This document shows, in pieces, positions 1,669 to 63,800 of a stretch of 64,000 nt of DNA. The notes under the pieces are model-generated. The model was not told the DNA's origin, did not search any database, and saw nothing but the letters and a program-made list of their open reading frames with translations. Source of the stretch: Ostreococcus lucimarinus (taxonomy: Eukaryota); NCBI GenBank assembly GCA_000092065.1, contig CP000584.1; one strand, given 5' to 3'. Made by a program: the position numbers and the translations under genes. Positions within the stretch are counted from its first letter, which is position 1. Every line of letters starts with the position of its first letter.

Positions 1669-1778
1669 TCGAGGCGACGCGCGCGACGAACGCGTCGCGA
1701 TGTGTCCCGAGGCGCGCGTCGTTCGTCCGCACTGACGCGCGCGCGCGAGCGCACGAGGCCGCGTCGACGCGCGCGACG

Positions 1779-14500: not shown

Positions 14501-15659
14501 CCTTTAATTCAAGCTGCACACTGTCTGATGCAAAGACGGAATATTGGAAATCTTGACCGTTCGAGGCCACCGCAACGGAGACAAAACCGATTCCAGCTGG
14601 AGCTACGCAGGTCACAGCGTTGGTTCCCGCGAGACCTGGAACTTTATGCGAGCCAAATTTACACGCAAGCTCTGGTGTTTGCACGACACTCTGTACCGTG
14701 ATAGACACATGGGAAGATCCTGCCGAAGAGACCTGGAACGGCGCGATTGCATCGACAACGAGACTCGATAGAAAAGTGAACGAGTTTGAGAATGTCACAT
14801 AGTCTCGATGATTCATCGAGACGCTCAGGGGCTTAGCCGCTAAAGAAGATGCAGGCGTCGCGCACTCCAATGTATTTTCATTCTGGTAAATCGCGGAGAC
14901 CTCAATTGCTCCGAAGCGACACCGCAACAAACTTGTCGGCGCAAAATTTTGTCCCGTCAGCGTCACCAACGTGCCCCCTTCGCCAGTACCGACTGCTGGA
15001 CTGACGCGACTTATCGACGGCGCGCCGATATAAATGTGCTGGACGCTACTGAAAGCCTCGAAAAAGTTTGAGGAAGTCAAAGACACGTCCACAGCGACGG
15101 TTCCCTTGTCGATCGAAGGTGATTCACACTTCATCAAACCAGACGAGACGATGTGCCCAGTAGTCGTGAGGTCGCCAAATCGACAGTACTGCGACACGTG
15201 CATATCAGCACCGAATACGTCTACGATACCTCCTGAAATACCATACACAGAGTTCACGGCGTCCACCTTGGCGCCACTCACAAATTGATATCCTTTTGTT
15301 CTCAAAAAGTCTCCCGTTTCATTGTTGAGCGCGAATTCGACGTTTACGAAACCCTCCGTGTGTGACGGTGCTGTGCATTTGACCGTCTCGGCGTCTACGT
15401 AATACGCCCGAACGAACTCATTATCAAACTTGCACGTGAGCTCTGCCCCTGGTATATTCTGAACCGCTGCCAGCTGCTTACTCGAGAGCGTGACGACTTC
15501 GCCGCCGCCCACGTGTCCCGCGCTCGGATACATCCATTCCACCTCTGGAATCTCAAATCCTCGAGCGCCGCACGCGAAGCACGCCGCCACCGTGATTAGG
15601 AATAAAACCAACCAAATCGCACGCGATGGACGAAACGACCTCATATCGCTCGTCCTCAT
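2541..15659 (-). CDS. Giant (4372 aa) single-exon receptor-like protein. Order: signal peptide, about 24 tandem IPT/TIG-like Ig-fold repeats (approx. 8900..15560), a Cys-rich CPxGxYC module (approx. 7080..8860), an unassigned extracellular region, about 11 TM helices (approx. 3480..5220), and a Ser/acidic cytoplasmic tail (2541..3480)
   Basis: Uninterrupted 13,119-nt ORF. N-terminus is MRTSDMRSFRPSRAIWLVLFLITVAACFACGARG. The recurring unit P..G...GGT.V.V.G..F.......C(K/R)FG......A.......C.AP......G.V.V.V occurs about 24 times. Many CPPGHYC/CPAGYYC motifs and multiple long hydrophobic segments are near the C-terminus. Confidence 0.85.
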   Translation of the reverse strand: MRTSDMRSFRPSRAIWLVLFLITVAACFACGARGFEIPEVEWMYPSAGHVGGGEVVTLSSKQLAAVQNIPGAELTCKFDNEFVRAYYVDAETVKCTAPSHTEGFVNVEFALNNETGDFLRTKGYQFVSGAKVDAVNSVYGISGGIVDVFGADMHVSQYCRFGDLTTTGHIVSSGLMKCESPSIDKGTVAVDVSLTSSNFFEAFSSVQHIYIGAPSISRVSPAVGTGEGGTLVTLTGQNFAPTSLLRCRFGAIEVSAIYQNENTLECATPASSLAAKPLSVSMNHRDYVTFSNSFTFLSSLVVDAIAPFQVSSAGSSHVSITVQSVVQTPELACKFGSHKVPGLAGTNAVTCVAPAGIGFVSVAVASNGQDFQYSVFASDSVQLELKDVIEITRIAPRVGAIGGGTLVHIEGEHLLQDNPVCRFGTTTVAATHVSSALMICETPSMFEGAYALDVSVVATAVELAMKPQFLFDPPPVVTALSPSMGLVEGGTTVTAAGHSFSDSHDLACKFGSIGPVVGEWIAADEYRCLAPAHVEGWVNFDIGMVSEFGAMFADGPQVTFLYTTEASVTTIINNDNNTATVTGTGFVPGQDVYCNLGNGDALVPGIVLSDGSVLCGLPEDNNGVNEYDIRIVDSSGNNIVSSTDANDILTRKVLLDHLLPLSGPSIGGTAIVVYGDHFSPSSLCRFGTLAPFRAAFISPSQVMCESPSMEVGYHDLAVSNNAFDWSVPGLPFEFMNTSSSVIHRVVPKTGPSQGGTILSFDGLAFRNDVSLAFRIGTISNVLGRWLSMNAASCVSPAHSAGSVPVNVFHHNTAFEIKLSQSAATFEYKVIATLSSMTIPESSFVTGGTSVTLFGENFYGSHLSCRFGSTTTNAFIFGSNTVCNAPASKSGFTVIDVSMNLQDFTSSALEFHYVAKPKLMRATPLTFPTIGGSLVYVTGSNMIWGGTNYSASCGYTTSAGTAKSSIHVISSALVVCVTPEGKDDTALQLVYNDVEQSADFQITFILLPGLEIDHPAARGLEAGGAVVDIYGDFSTDLSVISCKVGTISGISLTQGSSEKVECILPAHSPATVPVTVAMNERDNAATTLLYEYIANIDLTEPYRTSVSLDGGSLVELMISPSTLPSSLATLPVACVFDLHAAVAKVESNGLVLCLAPAHSSGFVAVGVQIHDVSVWDSSQIQLSYEPHAQITNLQPYDGAEAGGEIIKLTGVHFNEVTHNKFVFGSTKFSPVQFVSSALVVIEQPANDAGSAVLSFLSSGSTSLTDDEFESSGIVFEYIKEEDNPLHVSPQESNEDGGSIAIIYYKVDPYQQSFDNCACKFGSLGPIIGQLTGNGLECRVPAHIAGTIPMYARLFGEMFTSVKQPFSYHETVEVSSSAVYPSFGSVSGGVAVRILHENPMETSIKCHVAGFFVSATSISTNPYVSECIMPAYAPGFAQISLGASPGKDETDSLFLFQPDPILVSAYPTLISNSGGELVTISGEDLLDVAGGSVQCYFGDVNVPAKVHSSTLVTCESPYFSNNQGRIALYVDTGGSLNYDEMGTTSISYIPAPTLLDISAETVATSGGDTIQISSLTSVGILEELVDAPAGHVGSIGPMYVRSSGSSFEFVTPAHSPTSPDAIRVWLSSHLTSSYFTNFVLIYSEEDMTVMHVVPGRASNEGLADVVLEATGHSLSSTPKGCMFGLFPVLSSQAVRTSTCSGGNQRDCVRYTLSCPVPILSAGFVELSTIGLDGVGVDFDIFVPPVVTSMVPSVGFYSGSSVIHVAGEHLHESSFCHFGDQNTTAYAISSALSVCTSPVLSGNSPMVSLGVSPRDDENYISEIVAAFQYLDDFDFLSQSLENPYLSENGGNLFTFHIGNLAEDATEQEIFCRFGTIGPISTSEQRSSTSVTCISPAGLNGTVVVGSLTYNSKDYASVGSFEYFTPLVPSFVSPKRSVAAGDTTLKLMSNSAIYLPHGAYLGCKLHGQVAQATFEDQRTITCDTPPSGFGFTVLEIMVLPDAATPIGFEVFMPPVVLNVHPSIGTASGTTVLHVDGDNLHESGYCYFGNEQTSAHVVSSALGLCITPPWSTERRVGIGMAPRDDPGFISSYGTAFEYIDDLMISAVSPETGSENGGTTLSVSVNGLTDGARYSCRIGTFFPITSYNTQSDVLTCITPARGLGIADISISGNDRDLSTINTATFVYQVPPKISGIIPKVGLSGSRSPIFITGSNFVNTSSLTCRFGQELATATFLSSRSILCVAGVEQSGTRTVFVEVSTNGVDFSEQRLLFHFAQCPSGSYCPESEAILCPRGAFCGGGKNFTLCPPGTFQPRTGQADCLPTPVGYISPDAGSMIPIICPRGAVCDSTGLTVPNKLCPPGHYCLEGTRTSNFTDFTVAERPLPCPFGMYCTAGVVSSASIAYNFTTPQQCYAGYVCEPGSITPQGVGPCPPGHYCPPGQQLRCPKRMYCPGVANAEPKPCLPGEYNSDYGKDSCQKCPKGTICPGFAREAPEVCTPGFVCDTEGLAVAGTRCPAGHYCLENTVTRDPLAIIDVAAIVDASPIALNVDNFRPKPCPPTTFCTEGVTTSIVLEGSFKQPQPCKEGSFCEWATGDSTVVSESATDVYNPMRPCTEGHYCPKRTYIPIPAPRGSYTSGQGNSAAVTCLPGTYTPYEGFQECLTCAAGYECVDEGTFKPTACPAGYFRSARDSIACRQCPKGTWSSSIGLTEESLCLPCNSGLVCAIDGMSNNKPRGQGTAALNEYSAYCDADNTEAYDASKCVLLQLDPEGEADLCPEGYVCDARTSIAEQKCPDGYFCGPGTTPETQFFNKCPAGYYCPAGASYSTRTQFPCQACFFCPTGTGQVLNRCPTGTASSPSAQSLDECSADLITFWRVMPVSFDLIEKTYYKTINATGRDTEWLREVESQIAAGRTLLQIDTTNTSSSNATGPTDPFDYMGMGSCTNKNWELLNPTFILSDDNSIAAVDENNIPLMKFTLPRGHTAKLRLDWRTINENLKYGEHYELLIFTNPVIDDTLCPASEYKSVPCPPWDVGDGITWLNMKVIAGEEQEKKCPASQESLELPFWFARNSDGTATGYNVENPTFGNYVWKRGMHELSIQALDDLPFRIELRMLDGRYQEDNRASFLNSICIDVEFPERASATPTYSVHAILPFEIDEEYQAPLNAPVASTMYRSVSTDYFECANINQDPGCRRLDARAAIDYNSTYGAEWKKFKYLRQQNVLTAEDSPSQAHIDLTSTQAEDWVIVNEDGQTDETITLSLPDVYEQEKYLLNEGLWAADQTLFAMDYLPFFSACRGFDSHIFFSHLTENPYKPVTFGEDRTFVSYGETTLVPKEETVFINQYSPQVQAAVADELELTIDCFYEEAYTEASAKKRWYEAEGDTLFYLTAEAESQDALFEASALANDQTEPAANKEKYMADITAQENIPVIFAPVEGFVLTAGLMPTKVEFEILYYQFTDSDKRIIAATVTMDEYVSATAHDGTYTLSVAVSALGWFDLLNFFAFDFLFYLALFFAIGMLVVLLIFSVWVVVRIFTLLKEPPRFRFLPYLRIMIGPPLMGVTLGMLPFATAQFGLRAVFVAFPIITEFPISIDNIGREIDPAVVEKATAGRYAVCFLTAGMYMMGCAAEILVPAELKDEEEKELEDERYVDEVMFKPEVWKRSHFVLMNILVNVTNVFLIEFSFTDTFGVQFFTIFFLLKVAHVIMEMQIETALGEAFLLAPVSVVLASAVGVATIGADDFTDFTLGFFFETIMGMVEYVYLDAFIAYCALVLPDKISAVVNYIMNLLPFNFGDDDDVEVEEKIDAEDTLVEDLMGFLAAYGVNTAVNYMTPFFIFFFWDFNDQLRLSYLYGFRKKDLLIYLLFSVVIIPFWIVMDIITFNIQELFHGWKVYEYLKYARYRFINRTSRWKGFERVYDESIDPGLRAIDQMCFSSQFYFVLALGGSGSFLFVLALSMMLRANYNMFEDILFWACVLMVLGASYTAKRLALLLANHFGLWRITSSITSGEIIIEDSLDEDFSSIFVPKMAAVIEDSGGDSLQTMDVTTADLTSDQFRHLFMSKNRDWVIDQLQEILSPRTARRLKLGKAVRRRMKAGEMSESDSDMEEDFGEVKLSVGAEAAMRIWLTHAASRASGRGVNLRMLSDTSESETEAGLQRFPPVNLSEASSAALTGWLAAVKQLRANRQSSLTNTAVFSSTDFSSESDTDTEPKYATTEHMSQTSKMVMRDWLTRAREMRASVPPSAPKANLSDDSGDSSSQLSSDSASPERQPVSYVAASVMSQWLQRSRAEKEMSLANTPLSGGPKRQALTSDSGSSSDLESSDDPELAFDTRRPKTLSTASASILTGWLSSAQGVFRRRSRAEARAGSDEDNGSSPESLKPE

Positions 15660-50000: not shown

Positions 50001-50358
50001 CGATGATGTTGATTCTAATAGTATCTTTAGCATCTTTAGTGTTCTCGTCTCAACTCCTCAGTGTTCTGGTCTCGAGCCTCCATTCACCGCTCGCCGAGGG
50101 CTTCGTTCGCGAAACCTCGCGCGCGCGGCTCTCTCCTCAACGGGCGGTTCCGCGGTTTCGCGCTCGCCTGACCTCGGATCTGCACTCGACGTCGAGCGCG
50201 TCGTCGGCGTTCGCGCGAACGACGCGCGTGCGACGAACGCACGACACGCGCGCGCGTCAAACGCACGCGTCCGCGCGTCGTACGTTGCCGTTTACGCGCG
50301 CGCGCGCGAGCGCGAACGCGCGATTCGATCGCAACGTTTGGTCGCGATCTGAACAAAG

Positions 50359-53300
50359 ATGTTGACGAAGTTCGAGGTACGACGCGCGATGTGGCGCCGC
50401 GACGACGCGTGGATCGCGAGAAGTGATCGTCGAGCGGGACTGACGCGCGCGACGACCGCAGACGAAATCGAACCGGGTGAAAGGGTTGGCGTTTCACCCC
50501 AAGCGACCGTGGATTTTGGCGTCGCTGCACAGCGGGGTGATTCAGTTATGGGATTATCGCATGGGAACGCTGATCGATCGATTCGATGAGCACGAGGGTC
50601 CAGTGCGGGGGGTACACTTTCACAGTTCGCAGCCGTTATTCGTGTCAGGAGGTGCGTGATGATGGGGCGAGGCGAAGAGGGCGACGCGCGCGATCGACCC
50701 GAGACGCGATCGCAAACGCGAGGCGAGGAAAATGCGACGGGGGGAGAAATTGAGACTGACCGCGCGCTATTGCGCTGAAACAGGGGATGATTATAAGATC
50801 AAGGTTTGGAGTTACAAGCTCAGACGGTGTATGTTCACGCTTTTGGGTCACTTGGACTACATCAGAACGGTTGAGTTTCACCAAGAGTACCCGTGGATCG
50901 TCTCCGCTTCGGATGATCAGACGATTCGGATCTGGAACTGGCAGAGCAGAAGCTCGATTGCGGTTCTCACGGGACATAATCACTACGTTATGTGCGCGAG
51001 ATTCCATCACAAGGATGACTTGGTGGTTTCGGCGTCATTGGATCAGACGGTGAGAGTTTGGGACATTAGCGGTCTCCGGCGCAAGGCTGTGAGTCCGGCG
51101 GATGAGCTCCGCATGCCGCAAATGAACAACGATCTGTTTGGTGGAGGTGACACTGTGGTGAAGTACATCCTAGAAGGTCACGACCGCGGCGTCAATTGGG
51201 CGGCTTTCCACCCGACGTTGCCGCTGATTGTGTCCGGTGCGGACGATCGTCAAGTGAAGCTTTGGCGCATGAACGACACGAAGGCTTGGGAAGTTGACTC
51301 TCTTCGTGGACACGTCAACAACGTGAGTTGTGTCGCTTTCCATGCCAGGCAGGATGTGATTGTGTCGAACTCAGAGGACAAGTCGATCCGTGTGTGGGAC
51401 ATGTCAAAGCGAGCCGACGCGCAAACCTTCCGACGAGAGAATGATCGGTTCTGGATCTTGGCCGCGCATCCTGAAGTCAATTTGTTAGCCGCAGGCCATG
51501 ACAGTGGTATGATTGTTTTCAAGCTCGAACGTGAACGTCCGGCGTACACCAGCCACCAAGGTAGCTTGTTCTACGTGAAGGATCGCTACTTGCGCCGCTA
51601 TGACTTTCAGTCTCAGCGGGATAATCCGTTGGTGTCCATCCGACGCACCGTTGGAGGTCCCAACTCGAGCCCGAGATCCATGTCATACAACCCAGCGGAG
51701 AATGCGGTGCTCATTACGTACGATGCCGGTGGTGAAAACTACGAGCTTTTCATGTTACCAAAGGATAGCGGCCGAGGCGAAGTCAGTGGCGACTCACGTC
51801 GCGGTAACGGTATTGGCGCGGTCTTCGTGGCCAGAAACCGATTTGCGACACTGGATAAGCAATCGAATAACATCATCATCAAGAACTTGGACAACGAAAT
51901 GACCAAGAAGTGTGCCTGCCCTACCCCGGGCACTGACATGATCTTCTATGCTGGCACAGGATCGCTCTTGTGCCGCTCCGATGAGAAGATGGTGTTGTTT
52001 GATCTCCAACAGCGCGCCGCTATCGCCGAGCTTGCTGCACCACACATCAAGTACGTCGTCTGGGCGTCAGATATGAGCCGTGTTGCTCTGCTGAGTAAGC
52101 ACGCCATCGTTCTCGCGGATCGCAAGCTTGGTCACTCTGTCACGGTGCACGAAACCATTCGCGTAAAGTCGGGAGCCTGGGACGATCACGGTGTCTTCAT
52201 CTACACTACGCTCAACCACATCAAATACGCCTTACCAAATGGTGACTCGGGCATTATTCGCACGTTGGATAACCCCGTGTACCTCACCAAGGTGTTTGGC
52301 AATGTCATTTTCTGTTTGGATCGTGATGGACGTAACCGTCAGCTTCAGTTTGACCCGTCAGAGTACATGTTCAAGCTCGCGCTCAATGCGAAGAGGTTCG
52401 ATCAAGTGCTTTCGATGATCAAAAGTGGACAGCTCTGCGGCCAATCGATCATCGCGTACTTGCAGCAAAAGGGTTACCCGGAGATCGCGCTCCACTTCGT
52501 TCAGGTGAGTTTCTCGTGCAACTTTTTCGGCGCTTTCTCGACGACCTTTTGGCACACGATGATTATCTACAACCTTACGGATCCTTCCTTGGTGAATGCC
52601 GAGAGTCTATGAAGATTTCTTGTTCGCTATTTTTTTGTATGAGTGTTCCAGCGACACTGCATTTGCTGCTCTTTTTTCGCCGACGGCGGCTTGACTAACG
52701 TCTCTATTCTTTTCATAAAACAGGATGAACGCACTCGCTTTGAGTTGGCGTTGGAATGCGGTAACATCGAAGTCGCCCTCACTAGCGCTCAAGAGATCGA
52801 CGACAAAGACACATGGCACAAGCTTGGTGTTGCGGCGTTGAATCAAGGTAACCACCAAATCGTTGAGTTTGCGTACCAAAAGACGAAGAATTTTGAGCGT
52901 CTTTCATTCTTGTACCTCATCACCGGTAACCTCGAAAAGTTGAGTAAGATGTTGAAGATCTCGGAAATGCGCGCCGATGTCATGGGACAGTTCCACAACG
53001 CACTCTACTTGGGTGACGTAGCCGAGCGAGTCAAGGTGCTTGAGAATGTTGGCCACTACCCGCTCGCGTACTTAACCGCCAAGACACATGGATTGGAAGA
53101 CGATGCAGCGCGCATAGCAGAAACATTAAACGAGAACGGTGCCGCTATTCCAGACGTGAGTGGCTTAGGAAAGCTGCTTCAACCGCCCGCTCCCTTGTTT
53201 AGAGGGGATAACTGGCCGTTGTTGCCGGTGTCCAAGGGATTCTTCGAAGGTGTTCTATCTGGCGAGATCGCTGGCGACGAGTACGCTGAAGATGATGTCA

Positions 53301-54463
53301 TGGGCATGGGTGGTGTTGGTCTTGGATGGGGTGACGCTGACATTGATATCGGTGACGACGAGCGCGTCGATCCGCTCGCCAAGGCTGGTATTGCGCCCGA
53401 TGTTGAGTTCGACGACGTCGACAATGAAAACGATGGCTGGGGCATGGATGAATTAGAACTACCGGAAGAGTTGATGGGTGGTGCAGTGGATGACACTGGC
53501 GCTGAAACGTTTCATAGCGATGTCTTCATCGCACCAACCGCCGGCGTTCCGCCGTCGCGACGATGGACTGAGAAGAGTGCCGTTGCCGGCGAGCACGTGG
53601 CTGCGGGCGATTTCGATAGCGCCATGAAATTGCTTAGCCGTCAGTTAGGGATCGTCAATTTCGCTCCACTCAAGCAACATTTCGTGGATTTGGCGTATGC
53701 GTCGCATGTGACCCTCGAGGGCATGCCCGCAAGTCCCAAGATACCGATGCCGCTCGGCCGCGGCTGGTCTTCGCGCGCAACGGGTGTTTTGCCGCCTGCG
53801 ATGATCTGTTCTCCGGAAATTCTCCAGGAACGCCTCAAGTCCGCTTTCAAGTTAACTACTGAAGGCAAGTTTGTGGAAGCTTTGAAAGTGTTTGTCGGTA
53901 TCATTCACGCGATCACCTTGTTGAGCGTGGAGGATCCGAGCGAAGTTGAGGACGTGGAACAGCTCTTGAAGGTGGCTCGCGAATACGCGTGTGCGCTGAG
54001 GATTGAGATTGCTAGAAAGGAAGTCAAGGATGACGCGACTCGACAAGCTGAGCTCGCCGCGTATTTTACGCACTCTGAGATGCAGCCGATTCACCTGTCT
54101 CTTTCTCTGCGATCGGCAATGTCAATTTTCTTCAAGCTGAAGAACTATGTCACCGCCGCAACGTTCTGCCGTCGATTACTTGAACTCAACCCGCCTGTCA
54201 AGGTGGCTACGCAAGCGAAACAAGTGTTACAAGCGTGCGAACGAGCACCTAAGGATGAGGTCGAGGTCAACTACGATCCTCACAATCCGTTCGCCGTTTG
54301 CTCTGCTACCTTTGTTCCAATTTACAAGGGGACGAAGGACTGCGTGTGCCCTACGTGTGGTGCGCACTACGTCGTGGAAGAAGCAGGGAACGTTTGCGGT
54401 GTGTGTAACTTAGGCAAAATCGGAGCGGATGCGACGGGACTGGTGTGTTCTGCGGCGCGTTAG
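50359..54463 (+). CDS. COPA: Coatomer subunit alpha, 4 exons: join(50359..50376,50462..50651,50784..52504,52724..54463), about 1222 aa
   Basis: MLTKFE|[64 protein letters not shown]|[11 protein letters not shown]... reproduces the invariant COPA N-terminus across GT..AG introns. WD40 array, then the coatomer WD-associated region and COPI C-terminal domain. Confidence 0.9.
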
Positions 54464-54610: not shown

Positions 54611-55339
54611 TCAAAGCGGAGAAGAATCCGAACTCATCGACACTAGCCCTTCGACGGAGGGAGTCGGCGTGATCCGACTGCGTAAGCGTTCTGAGCTTGG
54701 GTACAAGAAAATAAGAACGACCTGTACGATGGAGAGCACAGAACCGAAAAGATTCGGCGCGGCGATCCACCAGTCGTTCAACGCTATGCCATACGTGGTC
54801 CAGCACAGGCCATTGAGTCCGTTGCAAAACACCAGAGGAAAGTGCATGGACTTTGAATCCTTCGTCCTGACGACTTCCGCCATCGTCGACAGCGGCGCCG
54901 AGTAGTACACCACCAGAATCAAGTTTGCCAAGATCCCAGCCACCACAAGGCGCGCGCTCTCGCTCGAATTCTTCATCACACAACTCACTACCATCCCTAT
55001 GAAACTAACCAAGATGATTAATACCGCAACTATGCGTTCCATCGTTCCCCGTATCTTCTCGTCGAGCGCATACGCCACAAAAGAGTAATACGTCCCGCAA
55101 AAGTATCCAGTAAAGTTTGGAATATACACCCAATAGTTCCCACTGATACCACCGTAAATCATCCACGCCGCGCAATTCGCCGCCACGAACGGATACGGCA
55201 GCGCGTTCAGGTGTCCGAGCGAGCGCTTCGTCTTGCACCGCTCGATTTCCGGGAACGGGCTCAGAAACATGACCTGGGCCAACGCGCTCCCCAACGCCGG
55301 CGCGAACCAAAGCGTGAGGGCATCTCGCGTGTCGCCCAT
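54611..55339 (-). CDS. SWEET: SWEET (MtN3/saliva, PQ-loop) sugar transporter, 7 TM
   Basis: Two MtN3 repeats (FLSPFPEIERCKTKRSLGHLNALPYPFVAANCAAWMIYG and YYSAPLSTMAEVVRTKDSKSMHFPLVFCNGLNGLCWTTYG). Confidence 0.8.
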   Translation of the reverse strand: MGDTRDALTLWFAPALGSALAQVMFLSPFPEIERCKTKRSLGHLNALPYPFVAANCAAWMIYGGISGNYWVYIPNFTGYFCGTYYSFVAYALDEKIRGTMERIVAVLIILVSFIGMVVSCVMKNSSESARLVVAGILANLILVVYYSAPLSTMAEVVRTKDSKSMHFPLVFCNGLNGLCWTTYGIALNDWWIAAPNLFGSVLSIVQVVLIFLYPSSERLRSRITPTPSVEGLVSMSSDSSPL

Positions 55340-55508
55340 GACGCGCGACGTGTGACGCACGTACGCTTACGTCGCGCACCTCGTCCTCGTGACCGTGCGA
55401 ACGCGCTGATGCGCGGCAACGCGGCGCACTTTGACGTCCGACGCGTTTGTCCCGCTCGAGACACTTTTTTGCCCGCACGCTCGGGACACCGCGACGCGCG
55501 TGTCGGCG

Positions 55509-55748
55509 ATGCACCCGCCGCTGACGCTGGACAAGCACCCGATCTGCCGCGAAGCCGTCATCGCTCTCAAGCGCTGTCACGCCGAAAACGCCCTGGGCAA
55601 GTTCCTCGGGAAGTGCAACGAAGAAAAGTGGACGCTCGACGCGTGCCTGAAGGAGCAAAAGCTGTGGAAGAGTCGAAGAAACTTGAAGCTCGCGCGCGAG
55701 TCCAAGGCGCGATTGGCGAAAAAACTCGAGGAAGAGCGAGCGAAGTGA
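55509..55748 (+). CDS. CMC2: COX assembly mitochondrial protein CMC2-like (twin Cx9C)
   Basis: MHPPLTLDKHPICREAVIALKRCHAENALGKFLGKCNEEKWTLDACLKEQ aligns with human CMC2 ([51 protein letters not shown]). Two Cx9C motifs. Confidence 0.7.
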   Translation: MHPPLTLDKHPICREAVIALKRCHAENALGKFLGKCNEEKWTLDACLKEQKLWKSRRNLKLARESKARLAKKLEEERAK

Positions 55749-55759
55749 GACCTCGAGCG

Positions 55760-56332
55760 ATGACGAGGGTTCTCATCGGAGTGTCAGGATCCGTGGCGGC
55801 GATCAAGTTCGACGAGCTCGCGCGCGAGCGGTGGAGCGCGAGCGGCGAGTGTGAGGTTCGGTTCGTGTTCACAGATAACGCGTTGAAGTTCATCGATGCG
55901 GAAGATATCGCACGAGCGGAAGAAAATAACATAAAAACTTTCACCGATCACGACGAGTGGCGTGAATGGGGCGAAAAGGGCGATCCCGTGATGCATATCG
56001 AGTTGGTCAAGTGGGCTGACGTCTTCGTCTTGGCGCCACTCAGCGCAAACACCCTGGCTAAAATCGCCAACGGGTTGTGTGATAATCTCCTCACGTGTGT
56101 ATTTCGCGCGTGGGATTTTAAAGACCCCGCCAAACGCGTGTTCATAGCGCCCGCGATGAACACAAAGATGTGGGAGAGCCCGTTCACCGAGCGACATTTG
56201 CGCTCGGCGCGCGAGCTCGGCGTCGTCGTCGTTCCGCCGATCGAGAAGCACCTCGCGTGCGGTGACTTTGGCGTCGGCGCCATGGCGGAGGTCTCCACCA
56301 TCGCCGAAGTCGTGCGGTCGCCTCCGGCGTAA
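55760..56332 (+). CDS. PPCDC: Phosphopantothenoylcysteine decarboxylase (HAL3/CoaC flavoprotein)
   Basis: MTRVLIGVSGSVAAIKFDELARE...ELVKWADVFVLAPLSANTLAKIANGLCDNLLTCVFRAWDF...VFIAPAMNTKMWESPFTERHL matches the flavoprotein fold. Begins 11 nt after the CMC2 stop. Confidence 0.85.
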   Translation: MTRVLIGVSGSVAAIKFDELARERWSASGECEVRFVFTDNALKFIDAEDIARAEENNIKTFTDHDEWREWGEKGDPVMHIELVKWADVFVLAPLSANTLAKIANGLCDNLLTCVFRAWDFKDPAKRVFIAPAMNTKMWESPFTERHLRSARELGVVVVPPIEKHLACGDFGVGAMAEVSTIAEVVRSPPA

Positions 56333-56434
56333 CCCGTCCTAGCTCATCATTGTTTCCCCGCGCGTCGTGTGTTGTGCAATAGAGATAGAAAAAAGCGAAA
56401 AAAACCCGACGGCTCGACGTCACCACCATAGCTC

Positions 56435-58030
56435 GTGCGCCTCGCGACGCCACACCGCGCTCGTCGACGATCGACGTCGCGCCGGACGCGCGCGATGCAC
56501 AGAACATTCGTCAGGTCGGCCATGCACCGCCGCGTCGTCGCCGCCGCCGCCGCGCGCACGCGCACGACGTCATCCTCGTCCTCGTCCTCGCCGCTCGCCG
56601 CGAGCGTCGTCGCGCGACGTTGGACGCCCGGACGTCCCGCGCAGCGCGCGACGCTCGCCACGCGAGCGAGCGCAACGAGCGAAGCGCCCGCGTTGAATGC
56701 GTCGGGGGAGACGAACAAGGCGCTGGCGTGGAAGGCGGCGATCGATTTCAAGTTTGTGCGGGACAACGCCGAGTTGGTGCAAAAGAACGCGACGACGAGA
56801 AAGGTGGACGTGGATGTGCAGGAAATCATCGCGAAATACGAGGCGTTGAACGCGTTGAACTTTAAGTGCGATGAACTTCGCGAGCGTCGAAACGCGAACG
56901 CGAAGAGCATGAAGGGGAAGATGGATAAAGAGGTTCGGGACGGGTTGATTGCCGAGGGCAAGGCGATTAAGGACGAGCTCGCGGCGCTCGAAGGCGATCT
57001 CGCCGGACTCGAGAGCGAGTTACAAACCATGGCGCAGAGGTTGCCAAACTTGACACACCCGGATGTGCCGATCGGCAGCGAAGAAAATACGGTGACTCGG
57101 GCGACGGTGGGTGAGCAGCGCGCGTTTACGTTTCCAGTGCAAAATCACGTCGACGTCGGCGAAAAGCTTGGGATGTTCGACTTCGAGACTGGAAGCAAGG
57201 TGAGTGGTAGTCGTTTCGTCTACCTCACCGGTGTTGGAGCTATGCTTGAGTTAGCTCTGATCAACTGGGCGTTCGCCAAGGTTTTGAGCAAAGGTTTCAA
57301 GCCCATGATGGTGCCAGACATGGTGCGTAGCAGCGTGGTGGAGAAGTGCGGATTCCAGCCGCGGGCAGAGAACACGCAAGTGTATAGCATTGAAAACTCC
57401 GATCTCTGTATGGCGGGTACGGCTGAACTATTATTGGGTGGAGTATACATGGATGAAGTTGTGGAAGAATCGCAACTCCCTATCAAAATGGCGGCCTTCA
57501 GTCATTGTTTCCGCACTGAAGCCGGCGCCGCCGGCGCGCAGACTCGGGGCATGTATCGTTTGCATCAGTTTAGCAAGGTGGAGATGTTCGTCGTGGCCAC
57601 GCCTGAGCAATCTGACGCACTTCACGAGGAGCTCATCGGCATCGAGACTGAAATGTTTGCAGAGCTCGGCTTCCACTTCAAAGTTTTGGACATGCCCACG
57701 GAGGACTTAGGCGCACCGGCATATCGCAAATTCGACGTCGAAGCGTGGATGCCCGCGCTCGAACGGTACGGCGAAATTTCGAGTGCCTCGAACTGCACGG
57801 ATTATCAAGCGAGGCGGCTGAATATAAAGTACAGACCGAATGCCGTCGATGGCAAGAAGCAGCCGCTTATGCACTGCCACACTCTCAACGCGACGGCGTG
57901 CGCGATTCCTCGTATGATCGTCACCATCCTCGAAAATTTCCAGCAAGAAGATGGAAGCGTCGTCGTACCCGAGCCGTTGCGACCGTACCTCGGTGGCATG
58001 GATGTTTTGCGTCCGGAAGAGGGGAAATAG
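56435..58030 (+). CDS. SARS2: Seryl-tRNA synthetase (organellar type, with presequence; alternative start 56495)
   Basis: Class II motifs. GAMLELALINWAFAKVLSKGFKPMMVPDMVRSSVVEKCGF...FSHCFRTEAGAAGAQTRGMYRLHQFSKVEMFV...CHTLNATACAIPRMIVTILENFQQEDGSVVVPEPLRPY. Confidence 0.9.
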   Translation: MRLATPHRARRRSTSRRTRAMHRTFVRSAMHRRVVAAAAARTRTTSSSSSSSPLAASVVARRWTPGRPAQRATLATRASATSEAPALNASGETNKALAWKAAIDFKFVRDNAELVQKNATTRKVDVDVQEIIAKYEALNALNFKCDELRERRNANAKSMKGKMDKEVRDGLIAEGKAIKDELAALEGDLAGLESELQTMAQRLPNLTHPDVPIGSEENTVTRATVGEQRAFTFPVQNHVDVGEKLGMFDFETGSKVSGSRFVYLTGVGAMLELALINWAFAKVLSKGFKPMMVPDMVRSSVVEKCGFQPRAENTQVYSIENSDLCMAGTAELLLGGVYMDEVVEESQLPIKMAAFSHCFRTEAGAAGAQTRGMYRLHQFSKVEMFVVATPEQSDALHEELIGIETEMFAELGFHFKVLDMPTEDLGAPAYRKFDVEAWMPALERYGEISSASNCTDYQARRLNIKYRPNAVDGKKQPLMHCHTLNATACAIPRMIVTILENFQQEDGSVVVPEPLRPYLGGMDVLRPEEGK

Positions 58031-59759: not shown

Positions 59760-60546
59760 TTACTTTCTGCGTTGCGCCGGGGAAGTCGTCTTGGACTTCT
59801 TCGCCGCGACGGGGGCAGTCTTGGAGGACTTGCGAACGGTCTTGACCGGCTTGCGCGCGGACTTGACGGTGCGCTTGACGGTCTTGCGCGCGGCCGGGGC
59901 GGCGGCGGTGCTCGTCTTGGAGCGAACGCGCTTCGTCGTGCGCTTCTTGGTCGTCGCAACCGGGGTGGTCTTCTTCGCCTTGTACGCGGTGGCCTTCTTA
60001 GCCTTCACCCCCGGGGCCGCCGCCGGAGCCGGCTTCGCCGTCTTCGGGGACACCGCCGCGGCCGAGCGCTTGCCCGATCGTCGCGCCGCCGGGGACGTCG
60101 TGGACGTCGCGAACGACGGTTCGACCGACGTCGCGGAGAGCGTCAACGCGAGCGCCGCCGAGAACGCGGCCCGCGCGAAGGACGCGCCTTGAGTTTCGCC
60201 CTCCTCCTTCGCGGCGCGCACCGCGAAGCTCTTCGCCTGCGTCTTGCGTCCCTGTTCGCGTCGCGTTCGCGTTTCGCCCATCGTCAGTCCTCTCGCGGGT
60301 GTTTCTCTCGCGTCTCGCGGGTGTTTCTCTCGCCCGTCCCGTCTCGCTCGCGGTCCCGTCTCGCTCGCGCCTCGTGGATAGGGTCCGCGACGATCGCGCG
60401 CTCGCGCGTCGTCCCTCGCCGCGTCTCGGGTCCGCGCGTCCCCCCTGCGCGACGCGGTCTCCGGTTCGCGTTCGGGCGCGCACCTGCGCGGACTTGGTCG
60501 CGACGCGCGCCCTGAGCGCCGTCATCGAGGTGGACATGGTGAACAT
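59760..60546 (-). CDS. Lys/Ala/Thr-rich basic low-complexity protein (paralog 2). Proposed 2 exons: join(60546..60484,60236..59760)
   Basis: Main ORF 59760..60281. Upstream mini-exon MFTMSTSMTALRARVATKSAQ with GTGCGC donor and ACGCAG acceptor, in phase. Conserved block AAFSAALALTLSATSVEPSFATSTTSPAARRSG. Confidence 0.5.
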
Positions 60547-60895
60547 CGTGCGAGCGTGCTTGCGTGCGGGAAGTGCGGATTCGGATTATTCGGCGGCGGG
60601 ATTCGATGCGCGGCGGGCGATCGCGGGGGGGTCACGACGAGTCACGAACGGTCGATGACGATTTTCGTTCGTTTTCGACCTCGAAAAAGCGCGCCGCGCG
60701 AAAAGACGCGCGGGTCCGGCGATCGATCGGATCGATCGCGCGCGCGATCGACGCCCGCGCGCGGTCGAACTTCGAACGGCGCGCGGCGATGGATGCGGCG
60801 ATGGATGCGCGCGTGGAACGATGCGGATGCGCGCGCGGATGACGGCGTGACGACGGGAGACGACGACGGCGCGACCGGGCGTCGCGTCGGTCGAC

Positions 60896-63800
60896 ATGGC
60901 GCCCGAGCGCGGCGCGCGCGGTGGACGCGGACGCGGGACGACGACGACGACGGGGGCGCGATGCGACGGCGAGGGACGACGCGCGACGACGCGCGGACGG
61001 GGACGGGGACGGGGACGCGGGCGAGGCGGGGGCGCGAGCGCGAGCGCGAGCGCGGAGGCGCTGACGGAGGGTGAGAAAGAGGCGGCGCTGGCGCGGTCGA
61101 GGGCGCGCGAGGAAGCGCAAGCGGCGAAGAGGGCGGCGGAGGAGGCGACGAGGACGGAGGCGGCGGCGGCGAAGGCGCGCGCGGAGCTCGAGGCGAAGCG
61201 ACGGGAGATCGAGCGGGCGCGAGAGACGCGAGCGAAGGCGCGCGAGGGGAACGCGTCGCCGTCGAGGCCGGACGAACAAGCGCTCAAGGGGAGAGATTCG
61301 AGCATTAAGAAGAACACGACGCTGATTAAAAAGTTGAGGACGATTACGGAGGAGAACGGGGCGGCGCTCGCGCAAGAGTTGAGCAGGGTGAACGTGAGTA
61401 AGTACGTCACCGAGGCCGCGACGGCGTGCGTGGAGGGTAAGATGAAGAGCTCGGACGTCAACGCGGCGGTGGAGATCATTTCTTGCATGCACCAGACGTA
61501 CGCGGATTTCGCGGCGCCGCTCATCGCGGCGTTGAGCGCGTACGTATTGCCGCCCAAGCCCGAGACGTTGTTGAAGATGGCAGAGGGCGAGGTAGAGGCG
61601 TTGCCGTCGCCGTTGCAGCGTCGAACCAAATTACGATTGTTCATGGAGCTTCATCTCGTCGGTGTGTGCCCCGAAGTAAAGCCCGTGCTCGACGCCGTGA
61701 AGGAGCTGGCGCGCTTGGAGTACAAGACGGCGCCGGATTTATACCAACACTCGCTCAGCACGCTGGCAAGTTTCGCCAAGACATTTGCCGTGGAGATGCT
61801 CGGTGCCGAACCCGAGGTCGAGATGGCGTCCAACGATTTTATCCTGGCGCCAGATGTGCAAAAGGCGTTTCGGACGACGCTGAATGAGTATTGCGACAGA
61901 CTCTTCTTCGTGCTCATGGAGGCGTTTTCAGCCGTCACAGCGCAAGAACGCGAGATGTCGCGGTTATTAGAACGCACGGGTGCTATTAGTGAGGCAGCAT
62001 CGGTGGAGTTTGCGGCTCTCACAAAGGTGTTTGATGGGTTGTTGAAGGGGGCAACGACGCTCGCAGAAGCGCTCAGTCGCGAGCTTCCAGAGATGAAGAA
62101 GCAAGTGGAAGAGAAGGTCGCACGAGGAGGCACGATGGAGCTGCATCGTGGAGGTGTGAAATCGTCGGGCGAGCGCAGCGATATGTGGGAAGACGAGGAA
62201 CAGCAGCACTTTTACGAGACACTTCCAGATTTGCGAGCCTCGATTCCCGCGGTGCTCCTGGTGAACGCGACGAACGAAAACGAAACGGAAGCCGAGCGTC
62301 TGAAACGCGAGAGGGAAGAAAACGCAGAAGGGCGAAGCGCAAAAGTCGAAGGTTTAATCATGCGTTTGTCCGATTCGCTGTCGAAAGACAAGGCTGATAC
62401 GATTTGTACCGACTTCTGTTACATCGCCGCTCGAGGAGGACGAAGACGGTTGATTCAAGAATTTTTGAGCGTACACCGCTCGGAGGTAGATCGCATTCCA
62501 TTCTATGGTAGAATAATAGCCACACTCGCGAATGTGTTCGATGACATCGCGCCCGCCGTTTCCGAACCGCTGAAGAATGAGTTCTATAATTTGGTCAAGA
62601 AGGGCAAACGAGCAAATCTAAGCGAGCGCTTGAAGAATATCAAATTCATCGGCGAGCTCATCAAGTTCAAAGTTTTCGACGATTTGGCGGTGTTTGAGAT
62701 CGTGAAAAGTCTTTTAGATGATTTTCATGGTGACAATGTCGACGTTCTTTGCTGTTTATTTGACGTAGCGGGCTATTACTTGACTCGAACGCCGTCGACG
62801 TCGAAACGTATGGGAAGCATTTTGGACATCTTCCTGCGCCTAAAAGCTGTGAGCAAGTTGGACTCTCGGCAGTGTGCTTTGGTGGATAGCGCTTATTATA
62901 AATGTAGGCCAGTGCAGAGGGTCGTAGTGGAAAAGATACGACCACCATTGCACGAATATATTCGAGAGCTCATCTATTTACAGTTGTCAAAGCACACGCT
63001 CGACAAAGTGGCGACGCAACTTCGTAAACTTCCTTGGGATGAAACTGAACCTTACTTGTTGAAAAGACTCCTCAAAGTGAGTAAAGGGAGATACGCATCC
63101 GTACCACTCGTCGCAGCGTTGATTGCGAGATTGTCACAATACTACCCGACTCTCGCAGTGCGAGCGCTTGATACATTGCTAGAGGATATTCGATTTGGTT
63201 TAGAGACAAACGAAACGTGGATGCATCAGCGCCGTGTTGCGAACATGAGACTCCTCGCACTTCTGTACAAAGAGCGCGTCGCGCTCTTCCGTGAGCTTAT
63301 GGATACGCTCTACTTGATAATTTCTATCGGCTACGACGGACGCGAAGCGCCTGACTATCTGACGGATACGATTCGTTTGCGCATGGTTTGTACGCTTTTG
63401 GAAACCGCGTTCAAGGGAAGAGGAGCCATTAGTTACGCGCAGAAGAAAGAAATCGACAGGTTCTTGATCTTTTTTCAGCGATACGCGTTGACAAAAGATG
63501 TGGCGTTAGATATATCTAACGACGTCATGGAGTTGTTGTCCTCGATGAATCCGCGAATGAAAATTTGCGAGACGTACGAAGAGGCGAACGGTGAGTGCCA
63601 AAAGCTTCTTGAAAAGCCGAGCATTACCCCTGGTGGCATGGAACCAGTGATGGAGGAGGAGGAAGAAGAAGAAGAAGAAGAAGAAGAAATGGACGTCTGC
63701 GAAGAGAGCGAAGAGAGCGAAGAGAGCGAAGAGAGCGAAGAAGAACACGAAGATGAAGATATGGACGATGTGTCGTCGGATGAATCAGAAGACGAATCTA

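What the first reader, a model, noticed from the sequence alone, without database searches (positions are those of the whole stretch)
55509..56332. CMC2 and PPCDC separated by 11 nt on the same strand: candidate bicistronic locus
The twin-Cx9C COX-assembly factor ORF (CMC2-like) ends with TGA at 55746..55748. The ATG of phosphopantothenoylcysteine decarboxylase is at 55760, in a different frame. That leaves no room for a terminator, polyadenylation site or promoter, and no splice signals in between. Polycistronic nuclear transcripts with very short inter-ORF spacers have been described in green algae, often pairing a small mitochondrial protein with a downstream enzyme. This pair fits that pattern.
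Basis: partly seen in the sequence, partly recalled or inferred. Interest (0 to 1): 0.7.

Follow-up and report, generated by a model that had tools for sequence, protein, structure and literature searches.

The report
CMC2–PPCDC bicistronic gene pair, Ostreococcus
Two unrelated genes in the tiny marine alga Ostreococcus lucimarinus, a small mitochondrial assembly factor and a coenzyme-A enzyme, sit 11 bases apart and are very probably read from one messenger RNA; the same pair is already listed as a two-gene transcript in other green algae, and it also appears in mosses.

Summary
A 79-aa twin-Cx9C Cmc1/CMC2 ORF (55509..55748, TGA) is followed after 11 nt by the ATG of a 190-aa PPCDC (55760..56332), in another frame. 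The window is Ostreococcus lucimarinus CCE9901, and both ORFs are already annotated there as separate genes (XP_001417204/205).

The bicistronic reading is well supported but not proven for this species.
- The same pair, "CMC2/COAC1", is listed as a bicistron in Auxenochlorella protothecoides (inter-ORF 2 nt, no upstream ATGs). It has PacBio support in Chlorella sorokiniana (PMC11892635, Datasets S1/S2). Ostreococcus was not examined for this pair.
- CMC2→PPCDC adjacency holds in 31 distinct Mamiellophyceae-like sequences, with spacers from −20 to 82 nt. It survives rearrangement of the flanking genes.
- No ATG lies between the CMC2 start and the first PPCDC-frame ATG in any of them. That fits leaky scanning.
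- One MMETSP transcript in a relative carries both ORFs.
- Spliced moss transcript contigs carry both ORFs, and Physcomitrium keeps a decayed CMC2 exon in its PPCDC leader.

Weak points are the absence of transcript data for O. lucimarinus and a CMC2 start context that is not clearly weak. Verdict: a new member of a known kind, with hints of green-lineage-wide conservation.

The parts
55340..55508 (+). Divergent intergenic region (169 nt) shared with the SWEET gene on the minus strand. Inferred to hold the promoter, transcription start site and short 5'UTR of the bicistronic transcript.
   Evidence: The SWEET (PF03083) ATG lies at 55337-55339 on the minus strand. The only ATG in this region is at 55409; it is in the PPCDC frame and is not conserved in strain L017. 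The promoter/TSS role is inferred, not shown.
55509..55748 (+). ORF1: CMC2-like twin-Cx9C COX-assembly factor, 79 aa, TGA stop. It contains no ATG in any frame after its start codon.
   Evidence: Pfam Cmc1 E 2.9e-17. Identical to XP_001417204.1. dN/dS is 0.03-0.26 in its own frame, and pN>pS in the other two frames. 0 internal ATGs against 3.4 expected, P=0.014.
55749..55759 (+). Inter-ORF spacer, 11 nt (GACCTCGAGCG).
   Evidence: The length is 11 nt in strain L017 with a different sequence (AGCATCGAGCG). Other lineages range from -20 to 82 nt, so the spacer carries no conserved element.
55760..56332 (+). ORF2: phosphopantothenoylcysteine decarboxylase (PPCDC / HAL3 / COAC), 190 aa, TAA stop.
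   Evidence: Pfam Flavoprotein E 3.9e-32. Identical to XP_001417205.1, which UniRef names phosphopantothenoylcysteine decarboxylase. 55-59% identical to land-plant PPCDCs.
56333..56494 (+). Downstream intergenic region (162 nt) before the seryl-tRNA synthetase gene. Inferred to hold the 3'UTR and poly(A) site of the transcript.
   Evidence: SerRS ATG at 56495. The role is inferred. The shared 3' end of contigs L018/L019 at 56342 coincides with a strain SNP at 56343 and is not evidence for a poly(A) site.

Best explanation
The locus is the Ostreococcus lucimarinus ortholog of the green-algal CMC2/COAC1 bicistron. One capped mRNA probably starts in the 169-nt region shared with the divergent SWEET gene. 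It runs through both ORFs and is polyadenylated in the 162 nt before the SerRS gene. Scanning 40S subunits initiate at the CMC2 AUG some of the time. The rest scan on (leaky scanning) through about 250 nt that contain no other AUG and initiate at the PPCDC AUG. One transcript thus yields a mitochondrial intermembrane-space COX-assembly factor and a coenzyme-A biosynthesis enzyme in a ratio fixed by the sequence. Shown here: the ORF identities, the geometry, purifying selection on both ORFs, conserved adjacency, and AUG avoidance. Shown in relatives only: co-transcription. Inferred: the transcript ends and the translation mechanism in this species.
For: (1) The same pair is listed as a bicistron in A. 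protothecoides: CMC2 UTEX250_A10.26400 plus PPCDC UTEX250_A10.26395, with 5'UTR 37 nt, ORF1 276 nt, inter-ORF 2 nt and 0 ATGs before ORF2. It is colinear in five other trebouxiophytes, with PacBio evidence in C. sorokiniana. Experiments in that paper favour leaky scanning.
(2) CMC2->PPCDC lies on the same strand in O. tauri (23 nt), an O. mediterraneus-like lineage (0 nt, TAA|ATG) and other clades. In total 66 loci give 33 distinct sequences, 31 of them Mamiellophyceae-like, with spacers from -20 to 82 nt.
(3) In the L025/L106-L113 lineage SWEET and COPA are absent, SerRS is inverted upstream and a ceramidase lies downstream, yet the pair is intact.
(4) There are no ATGs between the ORF1 start and the first PPCDC-frame ATG in all 31 sequences. 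Synonymous resampling expects 2.7-4.6, P 0.002-0.05 per lineage. In Ostreococcus-type loci only 0-11% of equal-length CDS windows are ATG-free. The 5' half of ORF1 alone is ATG-free in all 11 representatives (nulls 0.04-0.37).
(5) The relative frame varies (15/8/5) and stop codons vary, which argues against a fusion or readthrough product.
(6) MMETSP Transcript_12435 carries both ORFs in the L025 lineage.
(7) Moss contig L086 is colinear with the spliced exons of genomic L095 and carries intact CMC2 and PPCDC ORFs.
(8) The P. patens PPCDC mRNA leader retains a decayed CMC2 exon.
Against: I could obtain no transcript-level data for O. lucimarinus. The two short contigs that span exactly the pair (L018, L019) end at a strain SNP and so say nothing about transcript ends. 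The ORF1 start context is not clearly weak here: gGCGATGc ranks 11th of 27 window genes and ORF2 ranks 14th. A conservative codon-order permutation test is not significant in any single lineage (P 0.07-0.9). In GC-rich lineages ATG-free stretches are common by chance (17-44%). The lineages share ancestry, so multiplied P values overstate the significance. An ATG at 55409, in the PPCDC frame, would precede CMC2 if the TSS lay upstream of it. Moss versions carry 4-6 out-of-frame ATGs in ORF1 and the spacer, so leaky scanning alone does not fit everywhere. MMETSP transcripts are short-read assemblies that can merge overlapping transcripts in dense genomes.
Confidence: 0.8

Rival explanations
1. 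Two independent, overlapping monocistronic transcripts. PPCDC has its own transcription start inside the CMC2 coding sequence, and the CMC2 mRNA is polyadenylated inside or beyond PPCDC. The tight spacing would then simply reflect extreme genome compaction.
For: Ostreococcus intergenic regions average below 200 bp and gene fusions or overlaps are reported. Convergent genes in this window lie as little as 20 nt apart. A PPCDC 5'UTR lying within CMC2 would also be selected to lack uAUGs, which could explain part of the ATG avoidance. No transcript data exist for this species.
Against: ATG avoidance covers the whole of ORF1, including its 5' half, in all 11 representative lineages. The pair stays together where the flanks are rearranged. 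Spacers of -4, -1 and 0 nt leave no untranslated room. The orthologous pair is supported by long reads in trebouxiophytes, and both ORFs lie on one spliced contig in mosses.
Confidence: 0.12
2. A bicistronic mRNA, but PPCDC is translated mainly by termination-reinitiation after ribosomes finish CMC2, rather than by leaky scanning.
For: Spacers cluster at very short values, including overlapping stop/start arrangements (ATGA in L036, TGATG in L044/L052, TAA|ATG in L021), which are classic coupling geometries. The ORF1 start context is not obviously weak in O. lucimarinus. Moss transcripts have several out-of-frame ATGs followed by tiny ORFs. The authors of PMC11892635 do not exclude some reinitiation.
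Against: Reinitiation gives no reason to purge ATGs from inside a translated ORF1, yet all 31 Mamiellophyceae-like sequences lack them. A 240-nt ORF1 is long for efficient reinitiation (general knowledge). Spacers reach 80 nt in some lineages. In A. protothecoides and C. reinhardtii, ORF2 output falls when the ORF1 context is strengthened or an AUG is added.
Confidence: 0.15
3. A single fusion protein (CMC2-PPCDC) made by splicing, frameshifting or stop-codon readthrough, as in the first O. tauri gene model.
For: The old O. tauri model UPI0000E4B030 (302 aa) joins the two ORFs. The L021 lineage has the ORFs in frame, separated only by TAA.
Against: The relative frame is not conserved (15/8/5). 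The 11-nt spacer cannot hold an intron. The CMC2 C-terminus and the PPCDC N-terminal Met are each conserved. The current O. tauri annotation splits them into XP_022838729.1 and XP_003078689.2. A Cx9C intermembrane-space protein fused to a cytosolic flavoenzyme has no precedent that I know of.
Confidence: 0.02
4. The upstream ORF is only a regulatory uORF whose peptide is irrelevant, so this is not a true two-protein locus.
For: It sits where a uORF would sit. In P. patens the upstream ORF has decayed while the leader persists.
Against: There is strong purifying selection on the peptide (dN/dS 0.03-0.26; 12 of 16 differences between the window and L017 fall at third codon positions). M1, H2, P3, P4, the four Cys and other residues are invariant. 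The full-length Cmc1 profile matches in all lineages. No second Cmc1-family ORF turned up for these organisms in the searches, though that was not tested exhaustively.
Confidence: 0.03

Closest known systems
CMC2/COAC1 bicistronic locus of Auxenochlorella protothecoides (UTEX250_A10.26400 / UTEX250_A10.26395; PMC11892635, Datasets S1B, S2B, S5)
   Same: The same two protein families in the same order (Cmc1-like upstream, PPCDC downstream). ORF1 is small (276 vs 240 nt), the inter-ORF is very short (2 vs 11 nt), and there are no ATGs between the ORF1 start and the ORF2 start. It is colinear in related species, with PacBio support in C. sorokiniana.
   Different: It belongs to a different class (Trebouxiophyceae vs Mamiellophyceae). 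The Auxenochlorella genes contain introns (ORF2 'size' 1100 nt), whereas the Ostreococcus ORFs are intronless. Ostreococcus was not searched for this pair in that study. Long-read support exists there but not here. The pair is only listed in supplementary tables and is not discussed.
Green-algal polycistronic loci in general (Gallaher et al. 2021, PMC7896298; PNAS 2025, PMC11892635)
   Same: A small upstream ORF, often a mitochondrial protein (TOM22-like, LYR-motif), followed by a larger downstream ORF on the same strand. The relative frame is random, the stretch before ORF2 is AUG-depleted, and colinearity is conserved.
   Different: Median inter-ORF distances in C. reinhardtii and C. zofingiensis are 260 and 212 nt, much longer than here. 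A weak ORF1 Kozak-like context, typical of that set, is not clearly seen in O. lucimarinus.
CDC26-TTM3 bicistron of land plants and green algae (cited in PMC11892635)
   Same: A small upstream ORF and an unrelated metabolic enzyme on one transcript, conserved across Chlorophyta and Streptophyta. My moss contigs suggest that CMC2-PPCDC may be similarly ancient.
   Different: The genes differ. CDC26-TTM3 has experimental validation in Arabidopsis. CMC2-PPCDC linkage appears to be lost or decayed in some streptophytes (the P. patens fossil, and loci L094 and L098-L104 with no PPCDC downstream).
Translationally coupled overlapping stop/start pairs (AUGA / UGAUG) of bacteria and some RNA viruses
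   Same: Some Ostreococcus lineages have exactly these overlaps between CMC2 and PPCDC (L036 ATGA; L044/L052 TGATG).
   Different: This is a nuclear eukaryotic gene pair. The window itself has an 11-nt gap. ATG avoidance in ORF1 points to scanning rather than coupling. No ribosome-tethering element is possible in such short spacers.

Membership tests
Green-algal bicistronic (polycistronic) nuclear loci | Both ORFs are present on one mature, polyadenylated mRNA (Iso-Seq, EST or long-read evidence). | tested here: inconclusive
   No RNA data were reachable for O. lucimarinus. Contigs L018/L019 span exactly the pair, but their common end is at a SNP. Relatives are positive: MMETSP Transcript_12435 holds both ORFs, spliced moss contig L086 holds both, and there is PacBio support in C. 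sorokiniana.
Green-algal bicistronic (polycistronic) nuclear loci | [quoted passage not shown] | tested here: met
   The spacer is 11 nt, the shortest of 10 tandem gaps in the window.
Green-algal bicistronic (polycistronic) nuclear loci | A small upstream ORF. | tested here: met
   ORF1 is 240 nt. A. protothecoides ORF1s are mostly 114-729 nt, and its CMC2 is 276 nt.
Green-algal bicistronic (polycistronic) nuclear loci | Depletion of AUGs between the ORF1 start and the ORF2 start. | tested here: met
   0 observed vs 3.4 expected, P 0.014. 3-7% of matched CDS windows in this window are ATG-free. The count is 0 in all 31 Mamiellophyceae-like sequences. The codon-order permutation test alone is not significant.
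Green-algal bicistronic (polycistronic) nuclear loci | A weaker Kozak-like context at ORF1 than at ORF2. | tested here: inconclusive
   A PWM from 27 window genes scores ORF1 at 1.32 (rank 11/27) and ORF2 at 1.87 (rank 14/27). Across lineages, ORF1 never has A at -3, often has a pyrimidine there, and always has C at +4. The sample for the consensus is small.
Green-algal bicistronic (polycistronic) nuclear loci | Colinearity conserved in other species. | tested here: met
   The pair is also retained where the flanking genes differ.
Green-algal bicistronic (polycistronic) nuclear loci | Both ORFs encode real, selected proteins, and no conserved relative frame suggests readthrough. | tested here: met
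   dN/dS for ORF1 is 0.03-0.26, and third-position bias is seen in both ORFs. Relative frames are 15/8/5.
Green-algal bicistronic (polycistronic) nuclear loci | Both ORFs translated from the one mRNA (Ribo-seq, proteomics or in vitro translation). | not testable with these tools
   No ribosome-profiling or proteomic data are accessible.
CMC2 (Cmc1-family twin-Cx9C COX assembly factor) | A full-length match to Pfam PF08583 with two Cx9C motifs. | tested here: met
   E 2.9e-17, profile positions 1-69 of 70. C13/C23 and C36/C46 are invariant in the alignment. Assignment to CMC2 rather than CMC1 rests on source names ('COX assembly mitochondrial protein 2') and on the name used for the Auxenochlorella ortholog. 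It was not tested phylogenetically. No solved structure matched.
Phosphopantothenoylcysteine decarboxylase (HAL3/PPCDC/CoaC) | The flavoprotein fold (PF02441) with the PPCDC motifs: N-terminal GxSGSVA, PxMNxxMW, and the ACGD Cys loop. | tested here: met
   Pfam E 3.9e-32. The motifs GVSGSVAAIK, APAMNTKMW and LACGDFG are visible in the translation and invariant in alignment A2. That these motifs define PPCDC is from my own knowledge of AtHAL3a. Enzyme activity was not tested.

The most novel reading that the evidence does not exclude
CMC2-PPCDC may be an ancient obligate bicistron of the whole green lineage, a second deeply conserved plant bicistron beside CDC26-TTM3. It would be retained from prasinophytes (Ostreococcus and other Mamiellophyceae) through Trebouxiophyceae to mosses, with a decayed 'fossil' upstream cistron still embedded in the PPCDC mRNA leader of Physcomitrium patens. 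If so, the arrangement would be maintained to fix the stoichiometry between a mitochondrial cytochrome-oxidase assembly factor and coenzyme-A synthesis. In picoalgae the AUG-free upstream ORF and stop/start overlaps would mark its most streamlined form.
Probability: 0.55. Interest if true: 0.6.

Novelty: new member of a known kind. Interest (0 to 1): 0.5.

Why it matters
Eukaryotic nuclear bicistrons were long thought exceptional. Green algae are now the best system for studying them, and they are being turned into synthetic-biology tools for co-expressing genes.

This locus shows that one catalogued trebouxiophyte bicistron (CMC2/COAC1) is also present in Mamiellophyceae, where it takes an extremely compact, intronless form. 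It offers a natural series of spacers from −20 to 82 nt, all with AUG-free upstream ORFs. O. tauri is transformable, so the competition between leaky scanning and reinitiation becomes directly testable on a minimal natural template.

The moss transcripts and the Physcomitrium fossil suggest the linkage may predate the chlorophyte/streptophyte split. That would raise the question of why a COX-assembly factor and a CoA-pathway enzyme have been kept on one mRNA for so long.

For annotation, it explains why early pipelines fused these genes or missed the small ORF.

Tried and rejected
1. L018 (ERR9769283) and L019 (SRR27008269) looked like transcript contigs. Each spans just CMC2 plus PPCDC, and both end 10 nt after the PPCDC stop. 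The end coincides with a C/G strain SNP at window 56343, so this is an assembly-graph break.
2. L015 seemed to lack PPCDC, but the contig is truncated by a Nextera adapter.
3. The 307-codon ORF from ATG 55409 in the PPCDC frame, overlapping CMC2, is not coding. pN>pS in that frame, the ATG is absent in L017, and a TAG closes the frame in L011.
4. An apparent second tight pair, the DnaJ-like gene followed 2 nt later by ORF 50003-50365 with a weak CHD5 hit, is spurious. The region holds COPA exon 1 and an intron.
5. Codon-order permutation as a test of ATG avoidance is too conservative. The avoidance is carried by codon and amino-acid choice.
6. Kozak scoring from 27 window genes did not discriminate between the two starts.
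7. A profile search with a 17-lineage PPCDC alignment returned no named Micromonas or Bathycoccus proteins. The GC-rich lineages (0.62-0.70) are therefore labelled 'Micromonas-like' from composition only.
8. The PDB sequence search with CMC2 found nothing.
9. No supplements are held for the 2021 PNAS paper. No paper's main text combines CMC2 or HAL3 with PPCDC or 'bicistronic'.
Full report
**Observation.** The region reads exactly as described. An ATG at 55509 opens a 79-codon ORF that ends with TGA at 55746..55748. Eleven bases (GACCTCGAGCG, 55749..55759) follow. An ATG at 55760 then opens a 190-codon ORF that ends with TAA at 56330..56332, in a different frame, since (55760−55509) mod 3 = 2.

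ORF1 matches Pfam Cmc1 (PF08583) over the whole profile (E 2.9e-17) and has two Cx9C motifs. ORF2 matches Pfam Flavoprotein (PF02441, E 3.9e-32) and is 55–59% identical to land-plant phosphopantothenoylcysteine decarboxylases. The PPCDC start is well defined. The protein begins MTRVLIGVSGSVAAIK, three residues before the conserved N-terminal motif, and the next Met is residue 79.

The neighbours are a SWEET transporter on the opposite strand (start 55339, 169 nt from CMC2) and seryl-tRNA synthetase downstream (ATG 56495, 162 nt from PPCDC). Among 10 same-strand neighbour pairs of confident ORFs in the window, 11 nt is the shortest gap. Published averages for Ostreococcus intergenic regions are "below 200 bp".

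**Source and annotation.** Exact-sequence look-ups identify the window as Ostreococcus lucimarinus CCE9901. The two ORFs are XP_001417204.1 (UniRef: COX assembly mitochondrial protein) and XP_001417205.1 (phosphopantothenoylcysteine decarboxylase), already annotated as separate adjacent genes. The same layout recurs in many marine metagenome contigs of this species.

**What is already known.** Polycistronic nuclear mRNAs are established in green algae (PMC7896298). The follow-up study (PMC11892635) lists, in its Auxenochlorella protothecoides set, a locus labelled "CMC2/COAC1". UTEX250_A10.26400 is Cmc1-like and predicted mitochondrial. UTEX250_A10.26395 is a PPCDC. The 5'UTR is 37 nt, ORF1 is 276 nt, the inter-ORF is 2 nt, and no ATG precedes ORF2 other than the ORF1 start.

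That locus is colinear in Prototheca cutis, Chlorella vulgaris, Nannochloris desiccata and Coccomyxa, and carries PacBio evidence in Chlorella sorokiniana. The C. reinhardtii column is empty. The Auxenochlorella set was searched only within Trebouxiophyceae plus Chlamydomonas. O. lucimarinus and Micromonas were queried only with Chlamydomonas loci. So the Ostreococcus pair was not examined, and the pair is not discussed in any main text I could search. The paper's experiments favour leaky scanning: ORF2 output falls when the ORF1 context is strengthened or an AUG is added upstream.

**Comparative evidence gathered here.** CMC2→PPCDC on the same strand was found in the following places:
- a 91%-identity O. 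lucimarinus-like strain (11 nt, different spacer sequence);
- O. tauri (23 nt, sequence);
- an O. mediterraneus-like lineage, where TAA abuts ATG (0 nt);
- other Ostreococcus clades (38–58 nt).

A metagenome scan with a CMC2 alignment then gave 66 loci with both genes and 33 distinct sequences. Thirty-one of these are Mamiellophyceae-like, with GC 0.54–0.70. Over the 28 of them tabulated, spacers are −20, −4 (ATGA overlap), −1 (TGATG), 0, 5, 11, 12, 15, 22–24, 38–43, 58 and 80–82 nt. All divergent ORF1s tested are Cmc1-family.

In one lineage (L025, L106–L113), SWEET and COPA are absent, SerRS is inverted upstream and a ceramidase lies downstream. The pair is nevertheless intact. The linkage is therefore not just a by-product of general synteny.

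**Selection.** ORF1 is under purifying selection in its own frame (dN/dS 0.03–0.26). Twelve of the 16 differences between the window and the 91% strain fall at third codon positions. In the other two frames pN exceeds pS. This also shows that the long PPCDC-frame ORF extending back to ATG 55409 is not coding. The relative frame of the two ORFs varies (15, 8 and 5 sequences in the three frames) and stop codons vary, which argues against a readthrough, frameshift or spliced fusion. An early O. tauri model that fused the two ORFs has since been replaced by two genes.

**The AUG-free signature.** In the window there is no ATG in any frame between 55509 and 55760. Synonymous resampling with this genome's codon usage expects 3.4 (P 0.014). 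Only 3–7% of equal-length coding windows in the window are ATG-free.

The same holds in every one of the 31 Mamiellophyceae-like sequences. The single L016/L061 ATG inside ORF1 is in the PPCDC frame. Per-lineage empirical nulls are 0–11% in Ostreococcus-type loci but 17–44% in most GC-rich ones, where the test is uninformative. The 5' half of ORF1 alone is ATG-free in all 11 representative lineages, with nulls of 0.04–0.37. That pattern is hard to explain by a PPCDC promoter inside CMC2.

Three cautions apply. A codon-order permutation test is not significant in any single lineage, so the avoidance is carried by codon and amino-acid choice. The lineages are related, so multiplied probabilities overstate significance. 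The ORF1 start context in O. lucimarinus is average rather than weak (rank 11 of 27, against rank 14 of 27 for ORF2).

**Transcript evidence.** None could be obtained for O. lucimarinus. Two short contigs that span just the pair end at a strain SNP (56343 C/G), so they reflect assembly-graph breaks rather than transcript ends.

Relatives do provide such evidence. In the L025 lineage, MMETSP Transcript_12435 carries both the CMC2 ORF (g.46426) and the PPCDC ORF (g.46424). This is a short-read assembly, so it is supportive but not conclusive.

Two contigs from the scan (L085, L086) come from mosses; their PPCDC is 80–83% identical to Physcomitrium patens. They carry an intact twin-Cx9C CMC2 ORF followed by PPCDC. 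L086 is colinear with the exons of a moss-like genomic contig (L095), with three GT…AG introns removed. It is therefore a spliced mRNA carrying both ORFs.

In P. patens itself, RNA-seq contigs of PPCDC have a spliced leader of about 465–580 nt. Its second exon is a decayed CMC2 exon: ELVVNSKSSHEERLVQKFFRAYGGLSVE against ELIVNFKKCHEDHPVQKFFGACNDLKVQ, with the cysteines lost.

Some AT-rich, plant-like loci have CMC2 without PPCDC within 2.4 kb downstream, so the linkage is not universal. The moss transcripts also contain 4–6 out-of-frame ATGs in ORF1 and the spacer, so strict leaky scanning does not describe every lineage.

**Mechanism.** The best-supported model is one mRNA that starts in the SWEET–CMC2 intergenic region. 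It would be translated at the CMC2 AUG by some scanning subunits and at the PPCDC AUG by those that bypass it. The AUG-free 250 nt ensures that bypassing subunits reach PPCDC.

Termination–reinitiation may contribute. Stop/start overlaps and 0–11-nt gaps are favourable geometries for it. It does not explain ATG avoidance within ORF1, however. Independent overlapping transcripts remain possible (about 0.1). A fusion protein or a purely regulatory uORF is very unlikely.

**Novelty and score.** The kind of system is known, and this exact gene pair is already catalogued as a bicistron in another algal class. I therefore class it as a new member of a known kind.

What is new is the following:
- the extension to Mamiellophyceae;
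- the natural series of spacers, including stop/start overlaps;
- the uniformly AUG-free upstream ORF;
- indications from mosses and the Physcomitrium fossil that the linkage may be ancestral to the green lineage.

Interest 0.5. Confidence that the O. lucimarinus pair is expressed as a bicistron mainly by leaky scanning is 0.8.

Noticed in passing
L114 3007-3090 (P. patens GCA_000002425.3, CM009328.2); L115 261-353: Physcomitrium patens PPCDC mRNAs (RNA-seq contigs L115-L123) have a spliced 5' leader of about 465-580 nt. Its second exon is a decayed CMC2 exon (tblastn E 6e-7, cysteines lost). This is a fossil upstream cistron.
   Followed up: partly
L086 255-1295; L085 378-1672; L095 1834-3900: Moss-derived intronless contigs carry an intact CMC2 ORF plus PPCDC (spacers 75 and 287 nt, with 4-6 internal out-of-frame ATGs). 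L086 matches the spliced exons of genomic contig L095, so it is a spliced bicistronic mRNA in a bryophyte.
   Followed up: partly
L036/L037 2501-2755 and 2752: In an O. lucimarinus-like strain (95% CMC2 identity) the usual CMC2 stop is lost. ORF1 extends to 84 aa and ends in an ATGA overlap with the PPCDC start. L044 and L052 have a TGATG overlap.
   Followed up: partly
window 55409-55759: An ATG at 55409, 100 nt upstream of CMC2, is in frame with PPCDC and open all the way, giving a 307-codon ORF that overlaps CMC2. It is not conserved (absent in L017; the frame is closed by TAG in L011) and shows pN>pS, so it is not coding. It would matter only if the TSS lies upstream of it.
   Followed up: yes
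window 50003-50589 and 52600-52660: ORF 50003-50365 starts 2 nt after the DnaJ-like gene stop but is spurious low-complexity sequence. The real feature there is COPA exon 1 (MLTKFE, 50359-50376), followed by a GT intron and then [17 protein letters not shown] second short intron (gtctatg...ttccag, about 52606-52655) splits COPA into the two long ORFs 50732-52612 and 52643-54463.
   Followed up: partly
window 731-2423 (+) and 59998-61644 (-): Two other tight same-strand ORF pairs. 731-1735 is followed after 43 nt by 1779-2423 (OB-fold, PF01336). On the minus strand, 60586-61644 is followed after 39 nt by 59998-60546. They could be split exons, spurious ORFs or further tight pairs.
   Followed up: no
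L015 4236-4285: Metagenome contig ERZ27294684 k141_407058 ends in a Nextera adapter sequence (ctgtctcttatacacatctgacgctgccgacga), which truncates the CMC2 ORF. This is an assembly contaminant.
   Followed up: yes
L016 799-801 vs L061 2501-2737: L016 (Logan ERR14822400) has a premature TAA in CMC2, and the frame continues with homologous sequence to a TGA 60 nt later. The sister contig L061 has an intact 78-aa ORF. This is either a strain variant or an assembly error. This lineage also has one ATG inside CMC2 that is in frame with PPCDC, which gives the 276-aa model P0273.
   Followed up: partly
O. tauri proteins P0237, P0235: The old O. tauri model UPI0000E4B030 fuses CMC2 and PPCDC. OUS49357.1 (732 aa) clusters with both PPCDC and SerRS, so it is probably a PPCDC+SerRS fused model. 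Both illustrate annotation problems at tightly packed loci.
   Followed up: partly
L094, L098-L104 (GC 0.31-0.35): These AT-rich contigs have a plant-like CMC2 exon structure (a first exon of 14-16 aa) but no PPCDC within 2.4 kb downstream. The linkage is absent or more distant in some streptophyte-like genomes.
   Followed up: no
window 2541-15659 (-): A single uninterrupted 4372-codon ORF, the largest gene in the window. It was not examined.
   Followed up: no
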